A stretch of 64,000 nucleotides of DNA from positions 2,067-66,066 of the forward strand of contig JAAYAW010000085.1 of assembly GCA_012719135.1 (NCBI GenBank). Direction: 5' to 3'. The first letter of the stretch is position 1; every line of letters begins with the position of its first letter. Source of the stretch: Chloroflexota bacterium (lineage in GTDB: Bacteria > Chloroflexota > Anaerolineae > UBA1429). Made by a program: the position numbers and the translations under genes. This document shows positions 56,808 to 64,000 of this stretch, piece after piece. The notes beneath the pieces were generated by a model. That model did no database searches and was not told the origin of the DNA. It was given only the letters and a program-made list of their open reading frames with translations.

Positions 56808-58904
56808 CTAGATCAGCAACTCGTCGATGGCTGTGCGGAGCTCGCCCAGCCCAAAGGGCTTCATCAGGTACGGCAGATTCTTTCTGGTCAGGAAAAAGTG
56901 GGTGCTGCTGCCGATGCTGTCCCCGGTGATAAAGAGCACCCTGCCCTCCAGGCCGGGATAGTAGGTCTGGATTTCCTCATAGAGACGCGCGCCGCCCATG
57001 TTCGGCATCCGGATGTCGCTGATCACCAGATCGAACGGAACGCCGCGCTCGTGGGCCTGCCGCAGATACCGAAGCGCCTCCTCTCCATCCCTGCCGAGAA
57101 GCACGCGATGGCCGTCCTGATTGAGCACGCGCTGTACGACGCGCGCCACGGGTTCCTCATCCTCCACCAGGAGCACCAGCTTGTTGGTCACCCGAGGGCT
57201 CTGGTCCACCTCGTCCTCTGCTGAGCTCTCGGGGACCTCGTCGGTGTAGGGCAACGCCACGACAAACTCGGCCCCCTCAACGGACTCCTCATTGGCCCAG
57301 ATGCGCCCGTTATGTTCGCCTACGATGCCAAAGCAGATGCTCAGGCCGAGGCCAGTGCCCTTCCCGACCTCTTTGGTGGTGTAAAAGGGCTCAAAGAGAT
57401 GGCGCTTGGTCTCCTCGCTCAGGCCAGGCCCGCTATCGGCGATGTGGACGTGGACCATGTGCCCGGCCCGTTCCGTCCACACGCGCAGCCGGCCGCCGCC
57501 AGAAGAGGCCGTCATCGCATCCCGTGCATTGGAGATCAGGTTAAAGAACACCTGTTGTAGTTGGTGAGGATCCCCCATGACCGCAAGGGCATCGTCGGAG
57601 AGTTGGAGTTCGACGGAGATATTCTCGATGCGCAGTTGGTAGGCCTGAAGCTCAAGCGTCTGCTGAAGCAGGAGGTTGATGTCCGTCGGGCGTCGCATGG
57701 AGGAGTGCTCCCGCGCAAACGTCAGAAGGTTCCGCACGATGCGAGCCGCTCGCTGGGCCTGCTCGTGGATGCGTGTCACATCCTGCCGCACCTGGGGATC
57801 CAGTCCATCGGTCATCTGTAGCAACTGGGCATAGCCGCTGATGGCAGCCAGAGGGTTGTTCAGTTCGTGCGTTATGCCGGCGATCAGCTGTCCGATGGCC
57901 GAGAGTTTCTCGGACTGAATCAGCTGCGCTTGCGTGTCCCGGAGATGCTCCAGGCTGTCCTGTAGATCCTGGAACAGGTCCGCGTTGTAGATCGCCGCGG
58001 CCGCCAGCGTCGCCAGTGTCATCAGCAGGCGCTCGTCGTCATGATCAAAGGCATTGGGATGTGACGAGTCCACGCTCAGGGTTCCGATTGGGTGCTCGCG
58101 GAAGATGATCGGCGCCGTCAGGAGCGAGCCGATGTGGCGCTGGTTGCCCGTTGGGAAGAATCGCGTGTCTTGAGTGGCATCCGCGATATTGACGACGCTC
58201 CCGGTGGAGAGCGCCAGTCCAGCCGCACCGATCCCGGGGCGCAGCGCGCTCGAGCGTGCACGGGGAACTCGCCTGTCCCCTTCCGCAAAGAGCACACGGG
58301 TGGCCACCAGGCGCTCGCCAGCCTCATCCAGGAGATGCAGCACGCAGTTCTTGGCGTTGGCAATCGTCTCGACACAGGAGCTCACCACCAGATCCAGGAG
58401 AGGGTCGAGTTCCACTGTGGACATAAAGGCCTGGCTGACGCGGAACAAGACGTTTTCCTGCTTGGCCTCCGCATCGCGCTCCTCGCGCATCGAGGCGGTC
58501 TCCAGGGCCAGAGAGAGCATGGCCCCAAGGGAGTCGAGAAGGCGCTCGTCGGGGGATGTGGCGCCGTAGCGAAGCACCAACAATACCGTGTCGCCGCTTG
58601 ATGTGCGGCTTCTCCAGGCCAACACTCCCAGCGACACTTCGGGAGCTCTGATCACTCCACGGAGAAAGAGACCGCTCTGATCCAGTGCTGCGGCCTCGCG
58701 CGCGCGAGCGAGATCCGGCGTTTGAGGCAGATTGTGCTCCCGCAGGCAGGAAAACCCCTTCTCATCGATCGAGTAGATCCCTCCACCTTCGGCCCGGCTG
58801 TAGTCCAGGGCAACATCCAGGATGTGAGCCGGGAGGGATTCGGCGTTTCTGCTGCGGATCCTGGCCAGTCCTGCCGACCATGATTCGGGTGTGCGAGATG
58901 TCAA
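56808..58904 (-). CDS. hybrid sensor histidine kinase/response regulator with GAF domains
   Basis: Two GAF-like N-terminal domains, HisKA H-box (ITHELNNPL), HATPase_c (N, G1 DSGPGL, G2 GTGLGLS), and a C-terminal receiver domain (LLVEDEE...D...K). Confidence 0.9.
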   Translation of the reverse strand: MTSRTPESWSAGLARIRSRNAESLPAHILDVALDYSRAEGGGIYSIDEKGFSCLREHNLPQTPDLARAREAAALDQSGLFLRGVIRAPEVSLGVLAWRSRTSSGDTVLLVLRYGATSPDERLLDSLGAMLSLALETASMREERDAEAKQENVLFRVSQAFMSTVELDPLLDLVVSSCVETIANAKNCVLHLLDEAGERLVATRVLFAEGDRRVPRARSSALRPGIGAAGLALSTGSVVNIADATQDTRFFPTGNQRHIGSLLTAPIIFREHPIGTLSVDSSHPNAFDHDDERLLMTLATLAAAAIYNADLFQDLQDSLEHLRDTQAQLIQSEKLSAIGQLIAGITHELNNPLAAISGYAQLLQMTDGLDPQVRQDVTRIHEQAQRAARIVRNLLTFAREHSSMRRPTDINLLLQQTLELQAYQLRIENISVELQLSDDALAVMGDPHQLQQVFFNLISNARDAMTASSGGGRLRVWTERAGHMVHVHIADSGPGLSEETKRHLFEPFYTTKEVGKGTGLGLSICFGIVGEHNGRIWANEESVEGAEFVVALPYTDEVPESSAEDEVDQSPRVTNKLVLLVEDEEPVARVVQRVLNQDGHRVLLGRDGEEALRYLRQAHERGVPFDLVISDIRMPNMGGARLYEEIQTYYPGLEGRVLFITGDSIGSSTHFFLTRKNLPYLMKPFGLGELRTAIDELLI

Positions 58905-60280
58905 CGATCCCCCTGTTCTCCGTTTGCTGACGGGCGAGACGGTGCGGAGTTCATGCGCTGGCGGCGCCGTTGCAGCCTCGCGAGTCTCCGGCTGAGATGC
59001 TGTAGCGCCATATCCGGGTTCGGATGCGCGATCATCCCCGTAGCGAGCCCCTGCATGGCGCGCGTGACCAGGATTTCGGCATCGCCGTATGCCTTCACGG
59101 TGTGCTCATAGTACTTGGCCAGTTCGACGTACGAGTACAGGGCGTTGTCGGCCAGACCGTCCAGCCACAGCGGCACAGCCTCCTGTACACGCCCGCTACG
59201 CTTGAGCATCGCCGCGAGCCTGCGACGAGCATCCTGCCGGATCGAGGCGTCGTTCACCGTCAGGCCCGCTCGATAGGCTTCAGCTGCCAGATCGGCGCTC
59301 TCATCGGCCTCCCGGATCCGTCCGAGGGCCGCGGGGTCGTAGGCGCCCCTCTCTGCGGCCGCCGGGGGATCGGCCAGCGCGCTCGCGGCCTCGGCCGCCA
59401 GGGTAACCATGCTCAGGATATCATACCGGTTGTGGTAATAGACCCGTGCGACGTTCTCTGTCTCGCCGGTGGCAAGGTACTCGGCATAGATTGCCGGTAT
59501 CTCATAGCCGGGGATGTCGCTATCTCCGCGCGCCACCTTGAGCAGATCCGATTCCAGGGCGCTGAGCGCACAGGAGGCCAGAAGCCGGCCCCAGAGCCGC
59601 CTGGCTGTGGGCAAAAGATCCAGGTGCGCCATGCCCGAGAGCGGCGAACGCTCCCATCCGTTCAGAATGTAGCGTGTCTCGAGTACCGGCAGGTCAAAAC
59701 TGCGCCCGTTAAAGCTGATCAGGCCTGCAGCGTTGGCCGCCTCCGCCTCGATTCGTTCCAGGAGAAGGGGCTCATCGCCATAGTCGGGCGCCAAGTACTG
59801 GCGCACAACGAACGAATCGGCACCCACGTCAACTCGGCCGATGCCCACCATAAAGGCAAACGTGCCTGGCCCCCTGCCCAGACCCGTGGTCTCCGTATCG
59901 ATCAGCAGCGCACCGGCCAGATCGAACGGCTCCCGCCGGGTGTAAAGGAGCGCGGGCCAGTCCGCTTGGGCTCCGACGACAAATTCGCGCAGCATCCGCT
60001 CGCCGTGTCGCTCGCTCAGCGGAACACGCGTCTCGCCCACATACAACGAATGCCCGGCGGAGCGGAGCCAATAGCCAGGGACAAGCGACTCCAGCGGGGG
60101 TGCCGTGCGGCCAACCGATATGGCCTTCGCCCCGTTGTTGCTCTGCTGACCAAGGATGTTGGTGATTCGATCCCGGATATCCACCGTCACTCCGGTTGCG
60201 TGCCTCTGGCCCCAGTTCGCCCGAGAGGGCGTTTCAGCGATTATAGCATCGGCCGAGCACCCGAAAAAGCGGATCGTCAA
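58901..60280 (-). CDS. RNase H-like 3'-5' exonuclease with TPR-like C-terminus (YprB/MrfB-like, COG3359)
   Basis: DEDD exonuclease motifs (LLIDTETTGL; SFNGRSFDLPVL; YHNRYDILS) and a C-terminal helical repeat region. 4-nt overlap with the upstream helicase gene. Confidence 0.75.
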   Translation of the reverse strand: MTIRFFGCSADAIIAETPSRANWGQRHATGVTVDIRDRITNILGQQSNNGAKAISVGRTAPPLESLVPGYWLRSAGHSLYVGETRVPLSERHGERMLREFVVGAQADWPALLYTRREPFDLAGALLIDTETTGLGRGPGTFAFMVGIGRVDVGADSFVVRQYLAPDYGDEPLLLERIEAEAANAAGLISFNGRSFDLPVLETRYILNGWERSPLSGMAHLDLLPTARRLWGRLLASCALSALESDLLKVARGDSDIPGYEIPAIYAEYLATGETENVARVYYHNRYDILSMVTLAAEAASALADPPAAAERGAYDPAALGRIREADESADLAAEAYRAGLTVNDASIRQDARRRLAAMLKRSGRVQEAVPLWLDGLADNALYSYVELAKYYEHTVKAYGDAEILVTRAMQGLATGMIAHPNPDMALQHLSRRLARLQRRRQRMNSAPSRPSANGEQGDR

Positions 60281-62829: not shown

Positions 62830-64000
62830 CGGCTTTGGCTCCGCGGCCGGAGATGAGCTCGCGCAGGCCCGCCTCGTCAAGCGTTGGGACACTGTTGCGC
62901 TCAGCCTGCTGCAGTTTGCTGGCTCCCGGTGCTTCCCCAATAACCAGGTAGTTCGTCTTGCTCGAGACACTGCCGGTAACCTTGCCGCCCGCCGCGGCGA
63001 TCAGTTCGCTGGCCTGTTCTCGGCTGAGCGTGGGCAGCGTTCCGGTGATGGCGAGGCTCAGGCCCGCCAACGGGAGCGAGGTCGCGTCGCTTGAGGCGAT
63101 CTCCCCCACCATCCGCACGCCCCTCTCGCGCAACCGCTGGATCATCTCGCGATTGCCGGGCCTTCTCGTGTACGCCACGACGTCCCCCGCGATGATCGGG
63201 CCGATACCTTCGATCTCTGTCAGCGTCTCCTCACGGACCTGCAGCAGGGCGTCCATCGAGCCCAGGGCGCGGGCAAGCAACTGCGCCACTTGCGTGCCGA
63301 CTCCCTGTATCCCCAGGCCTGCCAAAACGCGCCACAGGGGCTGTTCGCGCGAGCGATCCAGAGCCTGTAGCAGATTATCCGCACGCTTTTCTCCGAATCC
63401 CTCCAGAGCGACAAGGGCCTGGCGATCCAGGGCGTAGAGATCGCTGACATCCTGCACGAGGCCGGCCTCAACGAGTTGCTGGGTCACACGGATGCCCAGG
63501 CCCTCAATGTCCATGGTGCCACGAGACGCCCAGTGCTCTATCCGGCGGACGCGCTGCGCCGGGCACAGAGCATTGGCACAGTACACGGCGACTTGCCCTA
63601 TCTCCTGCTCGACAGGCTGTCCGCACGACGGGCAGGCTTCCGGCAGCGACACGATGCGCTCATCGCCCGTTCGGACCGCGACCACCGGTTTGACAACCTG
63701 GGGTATCACGTCGCCGGCACGCTGGATCACGACCAGATCCCCCTCCCGTATGTCCTTCTTCTGGAGGTCGTCAAAGTTGTGCAGCGTGGCCTGTCGGATC
63801 TCTACGCCGCCGAGGCGTACCGGCTCCAGAACCGCATAGGGCGTGAGTACCCCGGTGCGCCCGACGTTCACGCGGATCTCAAGCAAGCGGGTGGTCGCCT
63901 CGCGCGACGGGAACTTGAACGCGACGGCCCAGCGGGGAGCATTGCCGACGATCCCCAGCTGTCTCTGGACGTCCAGCGAATCCAGCTTGATCACGACGCC
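62813..64000 (-). CDS. ligA: NAD-dependent DNA ligase LigA (C-terminal two-thirds; 5' end lies beyond window)
   Basis: OB-fold, Zn-finger ([10 protein letters not shown]...C), HhH repeats and C-terminal BRCT ([16 protein letters not shown]). The reading frame is open to the window edge. Confidence 0.9.

What the first reader, a model, noticed from the sequence alone, without database searches (positions are those of the whole stretch)
56808..64000. ligA-mrfA-mrfB-hybrid GAF histidine kinase gene string
NAD-dependent ligase, a YprA/MrfA-type DEAD/DEAH helicase with a DUF1998 zinc domain, and a YprB/MrfB-type DEDD exonuclease with a TPR-like tail follow one another with 17-nt and 4-nt overlaps. 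A hybrid GAF-GAF-HisKA-HATPase-REC kinase overlaps mrfB by 4 nt. In B. subtilis, MrfAB form a dedicated mitomycin-C adduct repair pathway separate from UvrABC. Linking them translationally to ligA (gap sealing) suggests a self-contained unhook-resect-seal repair module. The attached sensor kinase would be an unusual regulatory partner.
Basis: partly seen in the sequence, partly recalled or inferred. Interest (0 to 1): 0.55.

Follow-up and report, generated by a model that had tools for sequence, protein, structure and literature searches.

The report
ligA–mrfA(HNH)–mrfB repair gene cluster

Summary
The four genes exist, all on the minus strand. They are ligA (62813..64000, cut by the window end), a MrfA/YprA helicase (60277..62829), a MrfB/YprB DEDDh exonuclease with a TPR tail (58901..60184) and a cytoplasmic hybrid histidine kinase (56808..58904). 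Membership of MrfA and MrfB is solid: PDB 6ZNP at E 5e-180 and 8UN9 at E 2e-27, with all catalytic and zinc residues present.

- mrfA and mrfB do not overlap. mrfB starts at GTG 60184, leaving a 92-nt spacer with a conserved extended −10 box (TGCTATAAT).
- Only one GAF domain is supported.
- MrfA carries a 102-aa insertion (aa 639–740) that is an intact HNH nuclease.

Synteny:
- ligA–mrfA–mrfB is kept in 11 of 11 loci of one Anaerolineae-type clade.
- ligA is next to mrfA in 0 of 65 other species.
- The kinase is absent in three of those genomes and deleted in a fourth, so it is not part of the module.
- ligA is the canonical housekeeping ligase.

Verdict: this is a lineage-specific operon fusion of known repair genes. 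It contains an apparently undescribed, Chloroflexota-wide HNH-bearing variant of MrfA. Interest is moderate.

The parts
62813..64000 (-). ligA, 3' part (the last 395 codons; the 5' end lies beyond the window). Canonical NAD-dependent DNA ligase.
   Evidence: Pfam finds OB, ZBD, HhH and BRCT domains. NCBIfam NF005932 LigA scores 460 bits against a cut-off of 369, covering model positions 280-663. The full 685-aa gene in the identical public contig L001:221-2278 has all domains and the KIDG adenylation motif.
60277..62829 (-). mrfA/yprA-family SF2 3'-5' DNA helicase, 850 aa. Motif I is TASGKT at aa 83 and motif II is DEMH at aa 190. Its ATG overlaps the ligA stop by 17 nt.
   Evidence: Pfam finds DEAD, Helicase_C, HNH and MZB. 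PDB 6ZNP (B. subtilis MrfA) matches at E 5e-180 in two stretches, aa 22-638 and 741-843. The AF2 model has pLDDT 91.4, and its Foldseek top hit is 6ZNP at E 8e-74 with TM 0.78.
60610..60915 (-). Insertion of 102 aa (aa 639-740) at the CON/MZB junction of MrfA. It contains a Cys4-zinc HNH nuclease domain whose core is aa 677-730 (nt 60640..60801).
   Evidence: It corresponds to the gap in the alignment to 6ZNP. Pfam HNH scores 35.4 bits against a cut-off of 21.4. C677, C680, H693, H694, N715, N719, C724, C727 and H728 are invariant in 104 homologues. A segment profile hits PDB 5H0M at E 1.7e-5. The domain model (pLDDT 84.5) best matches the GVE2 HNH, McrA and Cap5 structures.
60361..60600 (-). 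MZB/DUF1998 zinc-binding domain of MrfA, with the four-cysteine signature [10 protein letters not shown] at aa 813-822.
   Evidence: Pfam PF09369 matches at E 1.5e-19. C813, C815, C819 and C822 are invariant. The segment aligns to 6ZNP residues 648-749.
60185..60276 (-). The 92-nt mrfA–mrfB intergenic spacer. It holds an extended −10 promoter-like element, TGCTATAAT, at 60240..60248. A weak terminator-like hairpin with a T-run lies at 60284..60270.
   Evidence: The mrfB start was fixed by comparison with relatives. TGnTATAAT occurs only twice in 64 kb (expected 0.13), and both copies lie upstream of a co-directional ORF. It is conserved in L082, L084, L085, L086, L089 and L092, and as GGTATAAT in L087. 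It is absent in L090 and L091.
58901..60184 (-). mrfB/yprB-family DEDDh 3'-5' exonuclease with a C-terminal TPR domain, 427 aa counted from GTG 60184. Catalytic residues are D96, E98, D164, H251 and D255.
   Evidence: Pfam PF13482 matches at E 3e-29. PDB 8UN9 (MrfB) matches at E 1.6e-27, with the DTE, FD and HNxxD motifs aligned; residue numbers come. A profile of the tail hits TPR proteins at E 6e-42, and 17 of 20 family members hit Pfam TPR families. The window's own tail is not significant on its own.
56808..58904 (-). Cytoplasmic hybrid histidine kinase, 698 aa: an unassigned N-terminal region (1-160), GAF (165-305), HisKA (H346), HATPase and REC. It overlaps the mrfB stop by 4 nt. It is a facultative neighbour, not part of the repair module.
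   Evidence: The N-terminus has no hit. There is no transmembrane segment; the highest 19-residue hydropathy average is 1.54. The kinase is present in L082, L085, L086, L088 and L089, reduced to a remnant in L084, and absent in L090-L092.

Best explanation
This is a lineage-specific operon arrangement in an Anaerolineae-type Chloroflexota genome. The single canonical replicative and repair ligase gene, ligA, is co-transcribed and probably translationally coupled with a MrfA-family 3'-5' DNA helicase. The MrfB 3'-5' DEDDh/TPR exonuclease gene follows after a 92-nt spacer that carries its own extended −10 promoter.

The helicase is a Chloroflexota-wide variant that has captured an intact HNH nuclease cassette between its connector and zinc-binding domains.

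The most likely function is the same as B. subtilis MrfAB: UvrABC-independent excision of bulky mono-adducts or intrastrand lesions. The steps below are inferred, not shown.
1. The built-in HNH domain makes the strand incision that gives the helicase and exonuclease an entry point.
2. MrfA unwinds the damaged strand.
3. MrfB degrades it from the 3' end.
4. A polymerase fills the gap.
5. The co-expressed LigA seals the nick.

The hybrid GAF kinase downstream is a co-transcribed but dispensable passenger gene.
For: Shown:
- Family membership of MrfA, MrfB and LigA, with all catalytic and zinc residues.
- The HNH insertion has an invariant CxxC…HH…N…N…CxxCH pattern in 104 homologues and an HNH fold.
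- The ligA/mrfA junction ranges from a 17-nt overlap to a 47-nt gap in 11 of 11 clade loci.
- These loci form one clade in a MrfA tree.
Five of those contigs are 10 kb or shorter, which suggests the linkage is common in this clade.
- The mrfB start and the conserved TGnTATAAT are established.
- The kinase is absent from otherwise syntenic genomes.
- The surrounding genes are housekeeping genes (cmk, a pseudouridine synthase, a D-Ala-D-Ala carboxypeptidase), not a defence island.

From the literature:
- MrfAB form a UvrABC-independent excision pathway, and MrfB is barely active on nicked DNA (10.1101/426304).
- ssDNA enters MrfA through a funnel lined by RecA2, OB, CON and MZB (PMC7797055). The HNH domain is inserted at the CON/MZB junction, that is, at this entry side (inference).
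Against: - No experiment exists for any HNH-bearing MrfA, so nuclease activity, strand choice and substrate are unknown.
- Function may not transfer from B. subtilis. Only close homologues complemented there, and the authors argue that function diverges between phyla (10.1101/426304).
- ligA is not linked to mrfA in 65 of 65 other species, including all other HNH-MrfA Chloroflexota. The linkage is therefore not needed for the pathway.
- The conserved block also includes unrelated genes (an SH3_3 gene upstream, and VTT/DedA and GNAT genes on the opposite strand). Plain inherited synteny therefore explains part of the conservation.
- The internal promoter is absent in L090 and L091.
- Most HNH-MrfA genes (26 of 31) have no adjacent mrfB. 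The HNH variant evidently also works without a neighbouring MrfB gene.
Confidence: 0.6

Rival explanations
1. Neutral synteny. ligA, mrfA, mrfB and the kinase sit together only because of shared ancestry in one lineage. The adjacency has no functional meaning beyond incidental co-transcription.
For: - ligA–mrfA adjacency is found in 0 of 65 species outside the clade.
- The conserved block also contains unrelated genes on both strands: SH3_3, VTT/DedA, GNAT, a methyltransferase and an SLT-TPR gene.
- The kinase comes and goes.
- ligA is the ordinary housekeeping gene.
Against: - The ligA/mrfA junction stays between a 17-nt overlap and a 47-nt gap in 11 of 11 loci, although MrfA identity falls to about 50% and the flanks beyond the block are rearranged.
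- All three genes act on DNA nicks or ends.
- mrfA–mrfB pairing is independently conserved across phyla, in 28 of 38 loci without HNH.
Confidence: 0.3
2. Anti-phage defence module. A YprA-family helicase fused to an HNH nuclease acts on foreign DNA, as in DISARM, Dpd, Druantia or ARMADA.
For: [quoted passage not shown] PADLOC models for BrxH, DruE, DpdF and DrmA give hits.
Against: - The PADLOC and NCBIfam hits cover only the generic helicase core and lie far below family cut-offs: DpdF 69 bits against 550, DrmA 27 bits against 999.
- The best match by far is the repair enzyme MrfA, at 603 bits.
- MrfB and the kinase have no PADLOC hit.
- The neighbourhood is housekeeping and stably syntenic, with no methylase, mobile-element or island signature.
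- The published tree places the MrfB-associated and stand-alone YprA helicases ('YprA only') on the repair branch (PMC12458937).
Confidence: 0.05
3. The HNH insert is a decaying selfish element, a homing-endonuclease or intein remnant, with no role in MrfA function.
For: The insert is 50-57% identical to the C-terminal HNH of stand-alone proteins made of zinc-ribbon repeats plus HNH. These look like mobile HNH endonucleases and are the probable donor family.
Against: - Every catalytic and zinc ligand is invariant across 104 homologues that average about 50% identity.
- The insert is present in all 39 Chloroflexota species-representative loci of that clade.
- No Hint or intein domain is detected.
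- The domain folds confidently within the full-length model.
- Together these indicate long-term purifying selection as a host domain.
Confidence: 0.05
4. The GAF hybrid kinase senses damage or a metabolite and regulates the repair genes.
For: It is co-directional with mrfB, with a 4-nt overlap. It lies downstream of the same promoter-like element in the window, L082, L085, L086 and L089.
Against: - It is absent in L090, L091 and L092, which keep ligA-mrfA-mrfB and the same downstream genes.
- It is deleted to a truncated REC remnant in L084.
- A different extra kinase is inserted in L088.
- No DNA-binding response regulator is nearby.
- It never neighbours mrfAB in the 80 other species.
Confidence: 0.07

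Closest known systems
Bacillus subtilis MrfA–MrfB (YprA–YprB) mitomycin C repair pair
   Same: - The helicase has the same architecture (NTR, RecA1, RecA2, WH, OB, CON, MZB with four Cys). It matches at E 5e-180, is 36% identical and superposes with TM 0.78.
- The exonuclease has the same DEDDh core plus a C-terminal TPR tail.
- The gene order is the same: mrfA then mrfB, co-directional.
   Different: - A 102-aa HNH nuclease domain is inserted at the CON/MZB junction.
- mrfA is fused to the ligA transcription unit.
- mrfB has its own promoter-like element.
- The organism belongs to a different phylum, and no lesion specificity is known for it.
Mycobacterium smegmatis SftH and the stand-alone ('YprA only') helicases of the YprA family
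   Same: They are monomeric DUF1998 SF2 3'-5' helicases of the same repair branch. Most HNH-bearing Chloroflexota MrfA genes likewise have no adjacent mrfB (26 of 31).
   Different: No HNH domain is described for SftH or the stand-alone YprA helicases in the papers read (PMC12458937, PMC7797055). The window's gene keeps MrfB next door.
pcrA–ligA operon of Bacillus and other Firmicutes (from my own knowledge, not tested here)
   Same: The housekeeping NAD-dependent ligase is co-transcribed with a DNA repair helicase.
   Different: The helicase is of a different superfamily (SF1 PcrA/UvrD) and lies upstream of ligA. No exonuclease partner is involved.
Ligase-associated DEXH helicase clusters (TIGR04121; Lhr-like helicase with an ATP-dependent ligase and a phosphoesterase or exonuclease)
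   Same: The concept is the same: an SF2 helicase, a nuclease and a ligase in one gene cluster.
   Different: The window's helicase scores 123 bits against a cut-off of 850 for TIGR04121. The ligase here is NAD-dependent LigA, not an ATP-dependent ligase. The helicase family is different.
Helicase–nuclease fusions such as Cas3 (HD), AddAB/AdnAB (RecB-type), DinG-exo and Druantia DruE
   Same: A translocating motor and a nuclease sit on one polypeptide.
   Different: The nuclease fold differs (HNH, ββα-metal). It is placed as an internal insertion into the helicase canopy rather than as a terminal fusion. The context is housekeeping.
Phage GVE2 HNH endonuclease (PDB 5H0M) and stand-alone zinc-ribbon–HNH proteins (P0317, P0320 and others)
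   Same: The HNH core matches best here. The profile hit is E 1.7e-5 and the fold match has TM 0.60-0.63. The stand-alone proteins are 50-57% identical over about 88 aa.
   Different: Those are free-standing enzymes, probably mobile or phage-encoded. Here the domain is embedded in a repair helicase and conserved across a phylum-level clade.

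Membership tests
MrfA/YprA (DUF1998 SF2 helicase); criteria of Burby & Simmons (10.1101/426304) | DExH helicase core with motifs I, II and III | tested here: met
   TASGKT (aa 83), DEMH (aa 190) and SAT (aa 227) are present. Pfam DEAD matches at E 2e-30 and Helicase_C at E 2e-13. These positions are invariant in 104 homologues.
MrfA/YprA (DUF1998 SF2 helicase); criteria of Burby & Simmons (10.1101/426304) | C-terminal DUF1998/MZB domain with four conserved cysteines | tested here: met
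   PF09369 matches at E 1.5e-19. C813, C815, C819 and C822 are invariant. The segment aligns to 6ZNP residues 648-749.
MrfA/YprA (DUF1998 SF2 helicase); criteria of Burby & Simmons (10.1101/426304) | Overall fold with WH-OB-CON-MZB canopy as in PDB 6ZNP | tested here: met
   The AF2 model has pLDDT 91.4. Foldseek matches 6ZNP_A at E 7.6e-74 with TM 0.70/0.78.
MrfA/YprA (DUF1998 SF2 helicase); criteria of Burby & Simmons (10.1101/426304) | 3'-5' helicase activity and a role in mitomycin C adduct repair | not testable with these tools
   This needs biochemistry and genetics. Cross-phylum complementation failed in B. subtilis for distant homologues (10.1101/426304).
MrfB/YprB (DEDDh exonuclease with TPR) | The five catalytic DEDDh residues (B. 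subtilis D107, E109, D172, H258, D262) | tested here: met
   D96, E98, D164, H251 and D255 lie in the aligned motifs DTE, FD and HNRYD against 8UN9, at E 1.6e-27.
MrfB/YprB (DEDDh exonuclease with TPR) | C-terminal TPR domain | tested here: met
   The tail aligns with those of Bacillus, Brevibacillus and Paenibacillus MrfB (ELAKYYEH motif). The family profile hits TPR structures at E 6e-42, and 17 of 20 members hit Pfam TPR families. The window's own tail alone reaches only E 0.25.
MrfB/YprB (DEDDh exonuclease with TPR) | Gene adjacent to and co-directional with mrfA | tested here: met
   It lies 92 nt downstream of mrfA. The same pairing occurs in 28 of 38 loci without HNH and in 11 of 11 clade loci (and the locus look-ups).
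NAD-dependent DNA ligase LigA (housekeeping) | Ia, adenylation (KxDG), OB, Zn finger, HhH and BRCT domains; equivalog-level score | tested here: met
   The window part scores 460 bits against a cut-off of 369 for NF005932. The full gene in L001 has all domains and K116 in KIDG.
NAD-dependent DNA ligase LigA (housekeeping) | It is the only ligA in the genome, not a dedicated paralogue | not tested
   Only a 64-kb window and contig fragments were available.
HNH (ββα-metal) endonuclease | H-N-H catalytic triad with two CxxC zinc ligand pairs, and the HNH fold | tested here: met
   PF01844 scores 35.4 bits against a cut-off of 21.4. C677, C680, H693, H694, N715, N719, C724, C727 and H728 are invariant. 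The domain matches 5H0M, McrA and Cap5 by profile and by fold.
HNH (ββα-metal) endonuclease | Nuclease activity | not testable with these tools
   This needs purified protein.
Ligase-associated DEXH helicase (TIGR04121) | Score above the curated cut-off | tested here: not met
   It scores 123 bits against a cut-off of 850.
Defence-system YprA helicases (DrmA, DpdF, DruE) | Family-level HMM match and the partner genes of the system | tested here: not met
   Only helicase-core hits below the cut-offs were found. No partner genes are present, and the context is housekeeping.

The most novel reading that the evidence does not exclude
HNH-MrfA is a self-sufficient incision-and-unwinding enzyme. The HNH domain sits at the DNA-entry funnel of the helicase and nicks the damaged strand when the motor meets a lesion. 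This would supply the endonuclease step that has never been identified in the MrfAB pathway. In this lineage the pathway is then written almost completely in one locus (nick, unwind, resect, seal). In most other Chloroflexota the HNH domain has made an adjacent MrfB dispensable.
Probability: 0.25. Interest if true: 0.6.

Novelty: new variant of a known kind. Interest (0 to 1): 0.4.

Why it matters
The MrfAB pathway is a recently discovered bacterial excision-repair route that works independently of UvrABC, and its initiating incision is unexplained. MrfB is barely active on nicked DNA, and the published model does not say how the strand is first cut (10.1101/426304, PMC11194089).

A phylum-wide clade of MrfA helicases with an intact built-in HNH nuclease is a natural candidate for that missing activity. 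It would be straightforward to test biochemically. These HNH-bearing helicases are also much less often next to mrfB (5 of 31 loci, against 28 of 38 loci without HNH).

The ligA fusion and the kinase add little. The first is a lineage-specific operon arrangement around the housekeeping ligase. The second is an optional neighbour.

Tried and rejected
- SOS/LexA box: GAAC-N4-GTTC with up to one mismatch gave 13 matches against 16.6 expected. None lies in the mrfA–mrfB spacer.
- Sigma-70 −35/−10 consensus scan: 0 sites in 56500-64000. The conserved element is an extended −10 without a recognisable −35.
- Rfam scan of the whole window: no family reached threshold.
- PADLOC: only generic helicase hits for MrfA and none for MrfB or the kinase, so the defence reading was rejected.
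- Second GAF domain in the kinase N-terminus: no Pfam hit at E up to 10.
- RNAalifold on the SH3_3–ligA spacer of relatives: no consensus structure. The alignment was poor, and hairpins are visible only by eye.
- Conserved downstream partner in HNH-MrfA loci that lack MrfB: all downstream ORFs are singletons apart from one pair.
- Literature searches for DUF1998 or YprA together with HNH, and for ligA-helicase operons in Chloroflexi, found no description of this architecture. Absence from the searchable open-access library is not proof of novelty.

Full report
**1. Observation**

Region 56808..64000 holds four co-directional ORFs on the minus strand.

- **ligA (62813..64000).** This is the C-terminal 395 codons of a canonical NAD-dependent ligase.
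  - It has the OB fold, Zn finger, HhH and BRCT domains and scores 460 bits against NCBIfam NF005932 (cut-off 369).
  - The identical full-length gene (685 aa, all domains, adenylation motif K116 in KIDG) is on public contig DAIPBP010000016.1 of GCA_036774445.1.
- **mrfA-like gene (60277..62829).**
  - Its ATG overlaps the ligA stop by 17 nt and follows a GGAG.
  - This start gives an N-terminus co-linear with B. subtilis MrfA.
- **mrfB-like gene.** The maximal ORF begins at a TTG that overlaps the mrfA stop, but this is not the real start.
  - In seven relatives MrfB begins M-D-I/L-(R/G)-(D/E)-I-L, which matches V-D-I-R-D-R-I at GTG 60184.
  - In six of them in-frame stops rule out a start at the mrfA stop; in L088 a second kinase gene lies upstream.
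  - The public gene call uses the same start.
  - So mrfA and mrfB are separated by 92 nt and do not overlap by 4 nt.
- **Kinase (56808..58904).**
  - It starts at a TTG after GGGGGA and overlaps the mrfB stop by 4 nt. Relatives show the same layout.
  - It has one GAF domain, not two. The first 160 aa match nothing.
  - It has no membrane segment.

**2. Family membership**

- **MrfA.**
  - It matches the B. subtilis MrfA crystal structure sequence (6ZNP) at E 5e-180.
  - Its AlphaFold model (pLDDT 91.4, pTM 0.89) superposes on 6ZNP at E 8e-74 with TM 0.78.
  - Helicase motifs I to III and the four MZB cysteines are present and invariant in 104 homologues.
- **MrfB.**
  - It matches the MrfB exonuclease core (8UN9) at E 1.6e-27, with all five DEDDh residues (D96, E98, D164, H251, D255).
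  - Its tail is homologous to the TPR tails of Bacillus-type MrfB. The family profile hits TPR structures at E 6e-42.
- These meet the homology criteria used by Burby & Simmons (10.1101/426304).

**3.

The alignment to 6ZNP breaks into two stretches, aa 22-638 and aa 741-843. The 102 residues between them replace about 13 residues of the B. subtilis protein at the junction of the connector (CON) and the zinc-binding MZB domain (domain borders from PMC7797055).

This insertion is an HNH endonuclease:
- Pfam PF01844 scores 35.4 bits against a cut-off of 21.4.
- The pattern CxxC…HH…N…N…CxxCH (C677, C680, H693, H694, N715, N719, C724, C727, H728) is invariant in 104 homologues that average about 50% identity.
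- A profile of the segment hits the phage GVE2 HNH endonuclease 5H0M.
- The domain model best matches 5H0M, McrA, Cap5 and Cas5-HNH.

Distribution of the insert:
- It is present in all 39 Chloroflexota MrfA loci of that clade among 80 species representatives.
- It is absent from the 41 others (Bacillota, Acidobacteriota and other phyla, plus three loci labelled Chloroflexi or Anaerolineales).
- A search of 1.84 billion cluster representatives found 45 with E ≤ 1e-30, most of them spanning both HNH and MZB.

The same search found a second group: stand-alone proteins made of zinc-ribbon repeats plus a C-terminal HNH that is 50-57% identical to the insert. These are the likely donor family.

None of the MrfA/YprA papers I could read mentions an HNH-bearing MrfA.

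**4. Synteny**

- **The clade.** Eleven loci carry SH3_3 – ligA – mrfA(HNH) – mrfB.
  - They come from relatives with MrfA identity of 50-68%, or LigA identity of 63-78%.
  - The ligA/mrfA junction always lies between a 17-nt overlap and a 47-nt gap.
  - The eight of these loci included in a MrfA tree form one clade.
- **Likely wider occurrence.** This suggests the linkage is common in the clade. It is an inference and was not looked up.
- **Outside the clade.** ligA lies within 10 kb of mrfA in 0 of 65 species with enough upstream sequence.
- **The kinase.**
  - It is present in six loci including the window's own contig L001; the contig ends before it in L087.
  - It is absent in L090, L091 and L092. 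There mrfB is followed directly by genes the window also has downstream of the kinase. L090 and L091 have all five (VTT/DedA, GNAT, methyltransferase, SLT-TPR, Pyr_redox); L092 lacks VTT/DedA.
  - In L084 it is cut down to a truncated REC remnant.
  - In L088 a second kinase sits between mrfA and mrfB.
  - It is therefore a facultative insertion.
- **HNH versus mrfB.** HNH-bearing MrfA genes have an adjacent mrfB in 5 of 31 loci, against 28 of 38 loci without HNH. Fisher p is 2e-6, not corrected for phylogeny. HNH loci without mrfB have no conserved downstream gene.

**5. Transcription signals**

- The mrfA–mrfB spacer contains TGCTATAAT at 60240..60248.
- This extended −10 consensus occurs only twice in the 64-kb, 65% G+C window (expected 0.13). 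Both copies lie just upstream of a co-directional ORF.
- It is conserved in the spacers of L082, L084, L085, L086, L089 and L092, and as GGTATAAT in L087, while the rest of the spacer diverges. L090 and L091 lack it.
- A weak hairpin with a T-run overlaps the mrfA stop.
- The likely units are ligA–mrfA, and mrfB (with the kinase where present) expressed from an internal promoter plus read-through.
- No LexA-type box was found.

**6. Mechanism**

Shown: the identities, the intact active sites and the gene couplings.

From the literature:
- MrfA is a 3'-5' helicase.
- MrfB is a 3'-5' exonuclease that is barely active on nicked DNA.
- Together they remove mitomycin mono-adducts or intrastrand lesions independently of UvrABC. 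They do not act on interstrand crosslinks (10.1101/426304, PMC11194089).
- ssDNA enters MrfA through a funnel lined by RecA2, OB, CON and MZB (PMC7797055).

Inferred:
1. The HNH domain, inserted at the CON/MZB junction beside this funnel, makes the incision that starts excision.
2. MrfA unwinds the damaged strand.
3. MrfB degrades it from the 3' end.
4. A polymerase fills the gap.
5. The co-expressed housekeeping LigA seals the nick.

ligA is most simply the cell's only ligase, with mrfA added to its transcript. This is comparable to pcrA–ligA in Bacillus (my own knowledge). It is not a dedicated sealing enzyme.

**7. Rivals**

- **Neutral synteny.** This remains a serious alternative for the ligA linkage, because unrelated genes are conserved in the same block.
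- **Defence system.** Rejected on HMM scores and context.
- **Selfish-element remnant.** Rejected because of the invariant active site across the clade.
- **Regulatory kinase.** Rejected because the kinase is absent from syntenic genomes.

**8. Verdict**

The interpretation as a self-contained repair module with a kinase regulator is only partly supported. The gene string itself is an ordinary, lineage-restricted operon arrangement of known repair genes. The HNH-bearing MrfA is a new variant of a known family. It gives a testable candidate for the unidentified incision step of the MrfAB pathway. Interest is 0.4.

Noticed in passing
L090:7283-8128, L091:7313-8170, L084:15331-16122 (related loci; the window ends inside ligA): A Rad52_Rad22-family (PF04098) gene lies two genes upstream of ligA in two relatives and within 5 kb in a third. 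A single-strand-annealing protein therefore travels with the ligA–mrfAB neighbourhood.
   Followed up: no
L001:~157-190 and the SH3_3–ligA spacers of L085-L092: A GC-rich hairpin (for example GCGCCCGGAAGC…GCTTCCGGGCG) lies between the SH3_3 gene and ligA. In L090 and L091 it is followed by a T-run. It looks like a terminator, and the stem sequence differs between relatives. RNAalifold found nothing on a poor alignment.
   Followed up: partly
window 8950-8958 (+): This is the only other TGCTATAAT in the window. It lies 54 nt upstream of an ATG ORF at 9012..9746 (+). This supports the motif being a genuine promoter −10 element in this organism.
   Followed up: partly
P0317, P0320, P0323, P0330 and about 70 other cluster representatives: These are stand-alone proteins of 180-450 aa made of repeated zf-FCS-like zinc ribbons plus a C-terminal HNH. 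The HNH is 50-57% identical to the MrfA insert. They are the probable source of the captured nuclease cassette.
   Followed up: partly
L084:11909-12202 and L088:10819-12489: In L084 the kinase is reduced to a 97-aa ORF that starts in the middle of the REC domain. In L088 a second hybrid kinase (HisKA-HATPase-REC) is inserted between mrfA and mrfB. This position is a hot spot for kinase gain and loss.
   Followed up: partly
window 49261..51801 (+): A large fusion protein combines Pyr_redox_2, Rhodanese, TusA and DsrE (846 aa; a CoA-disulfide-reductase-like sulfur-transfer enzyme). It is conserved at the same relative position in L090-L092.
   Followed up: no
L089:5955-7953: In this relative ligA is called as two ORFs (568 aa, then a 90-aa BRCT piece). 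This points to a frameshift or an assembly error in that contig.
   Followed up: no
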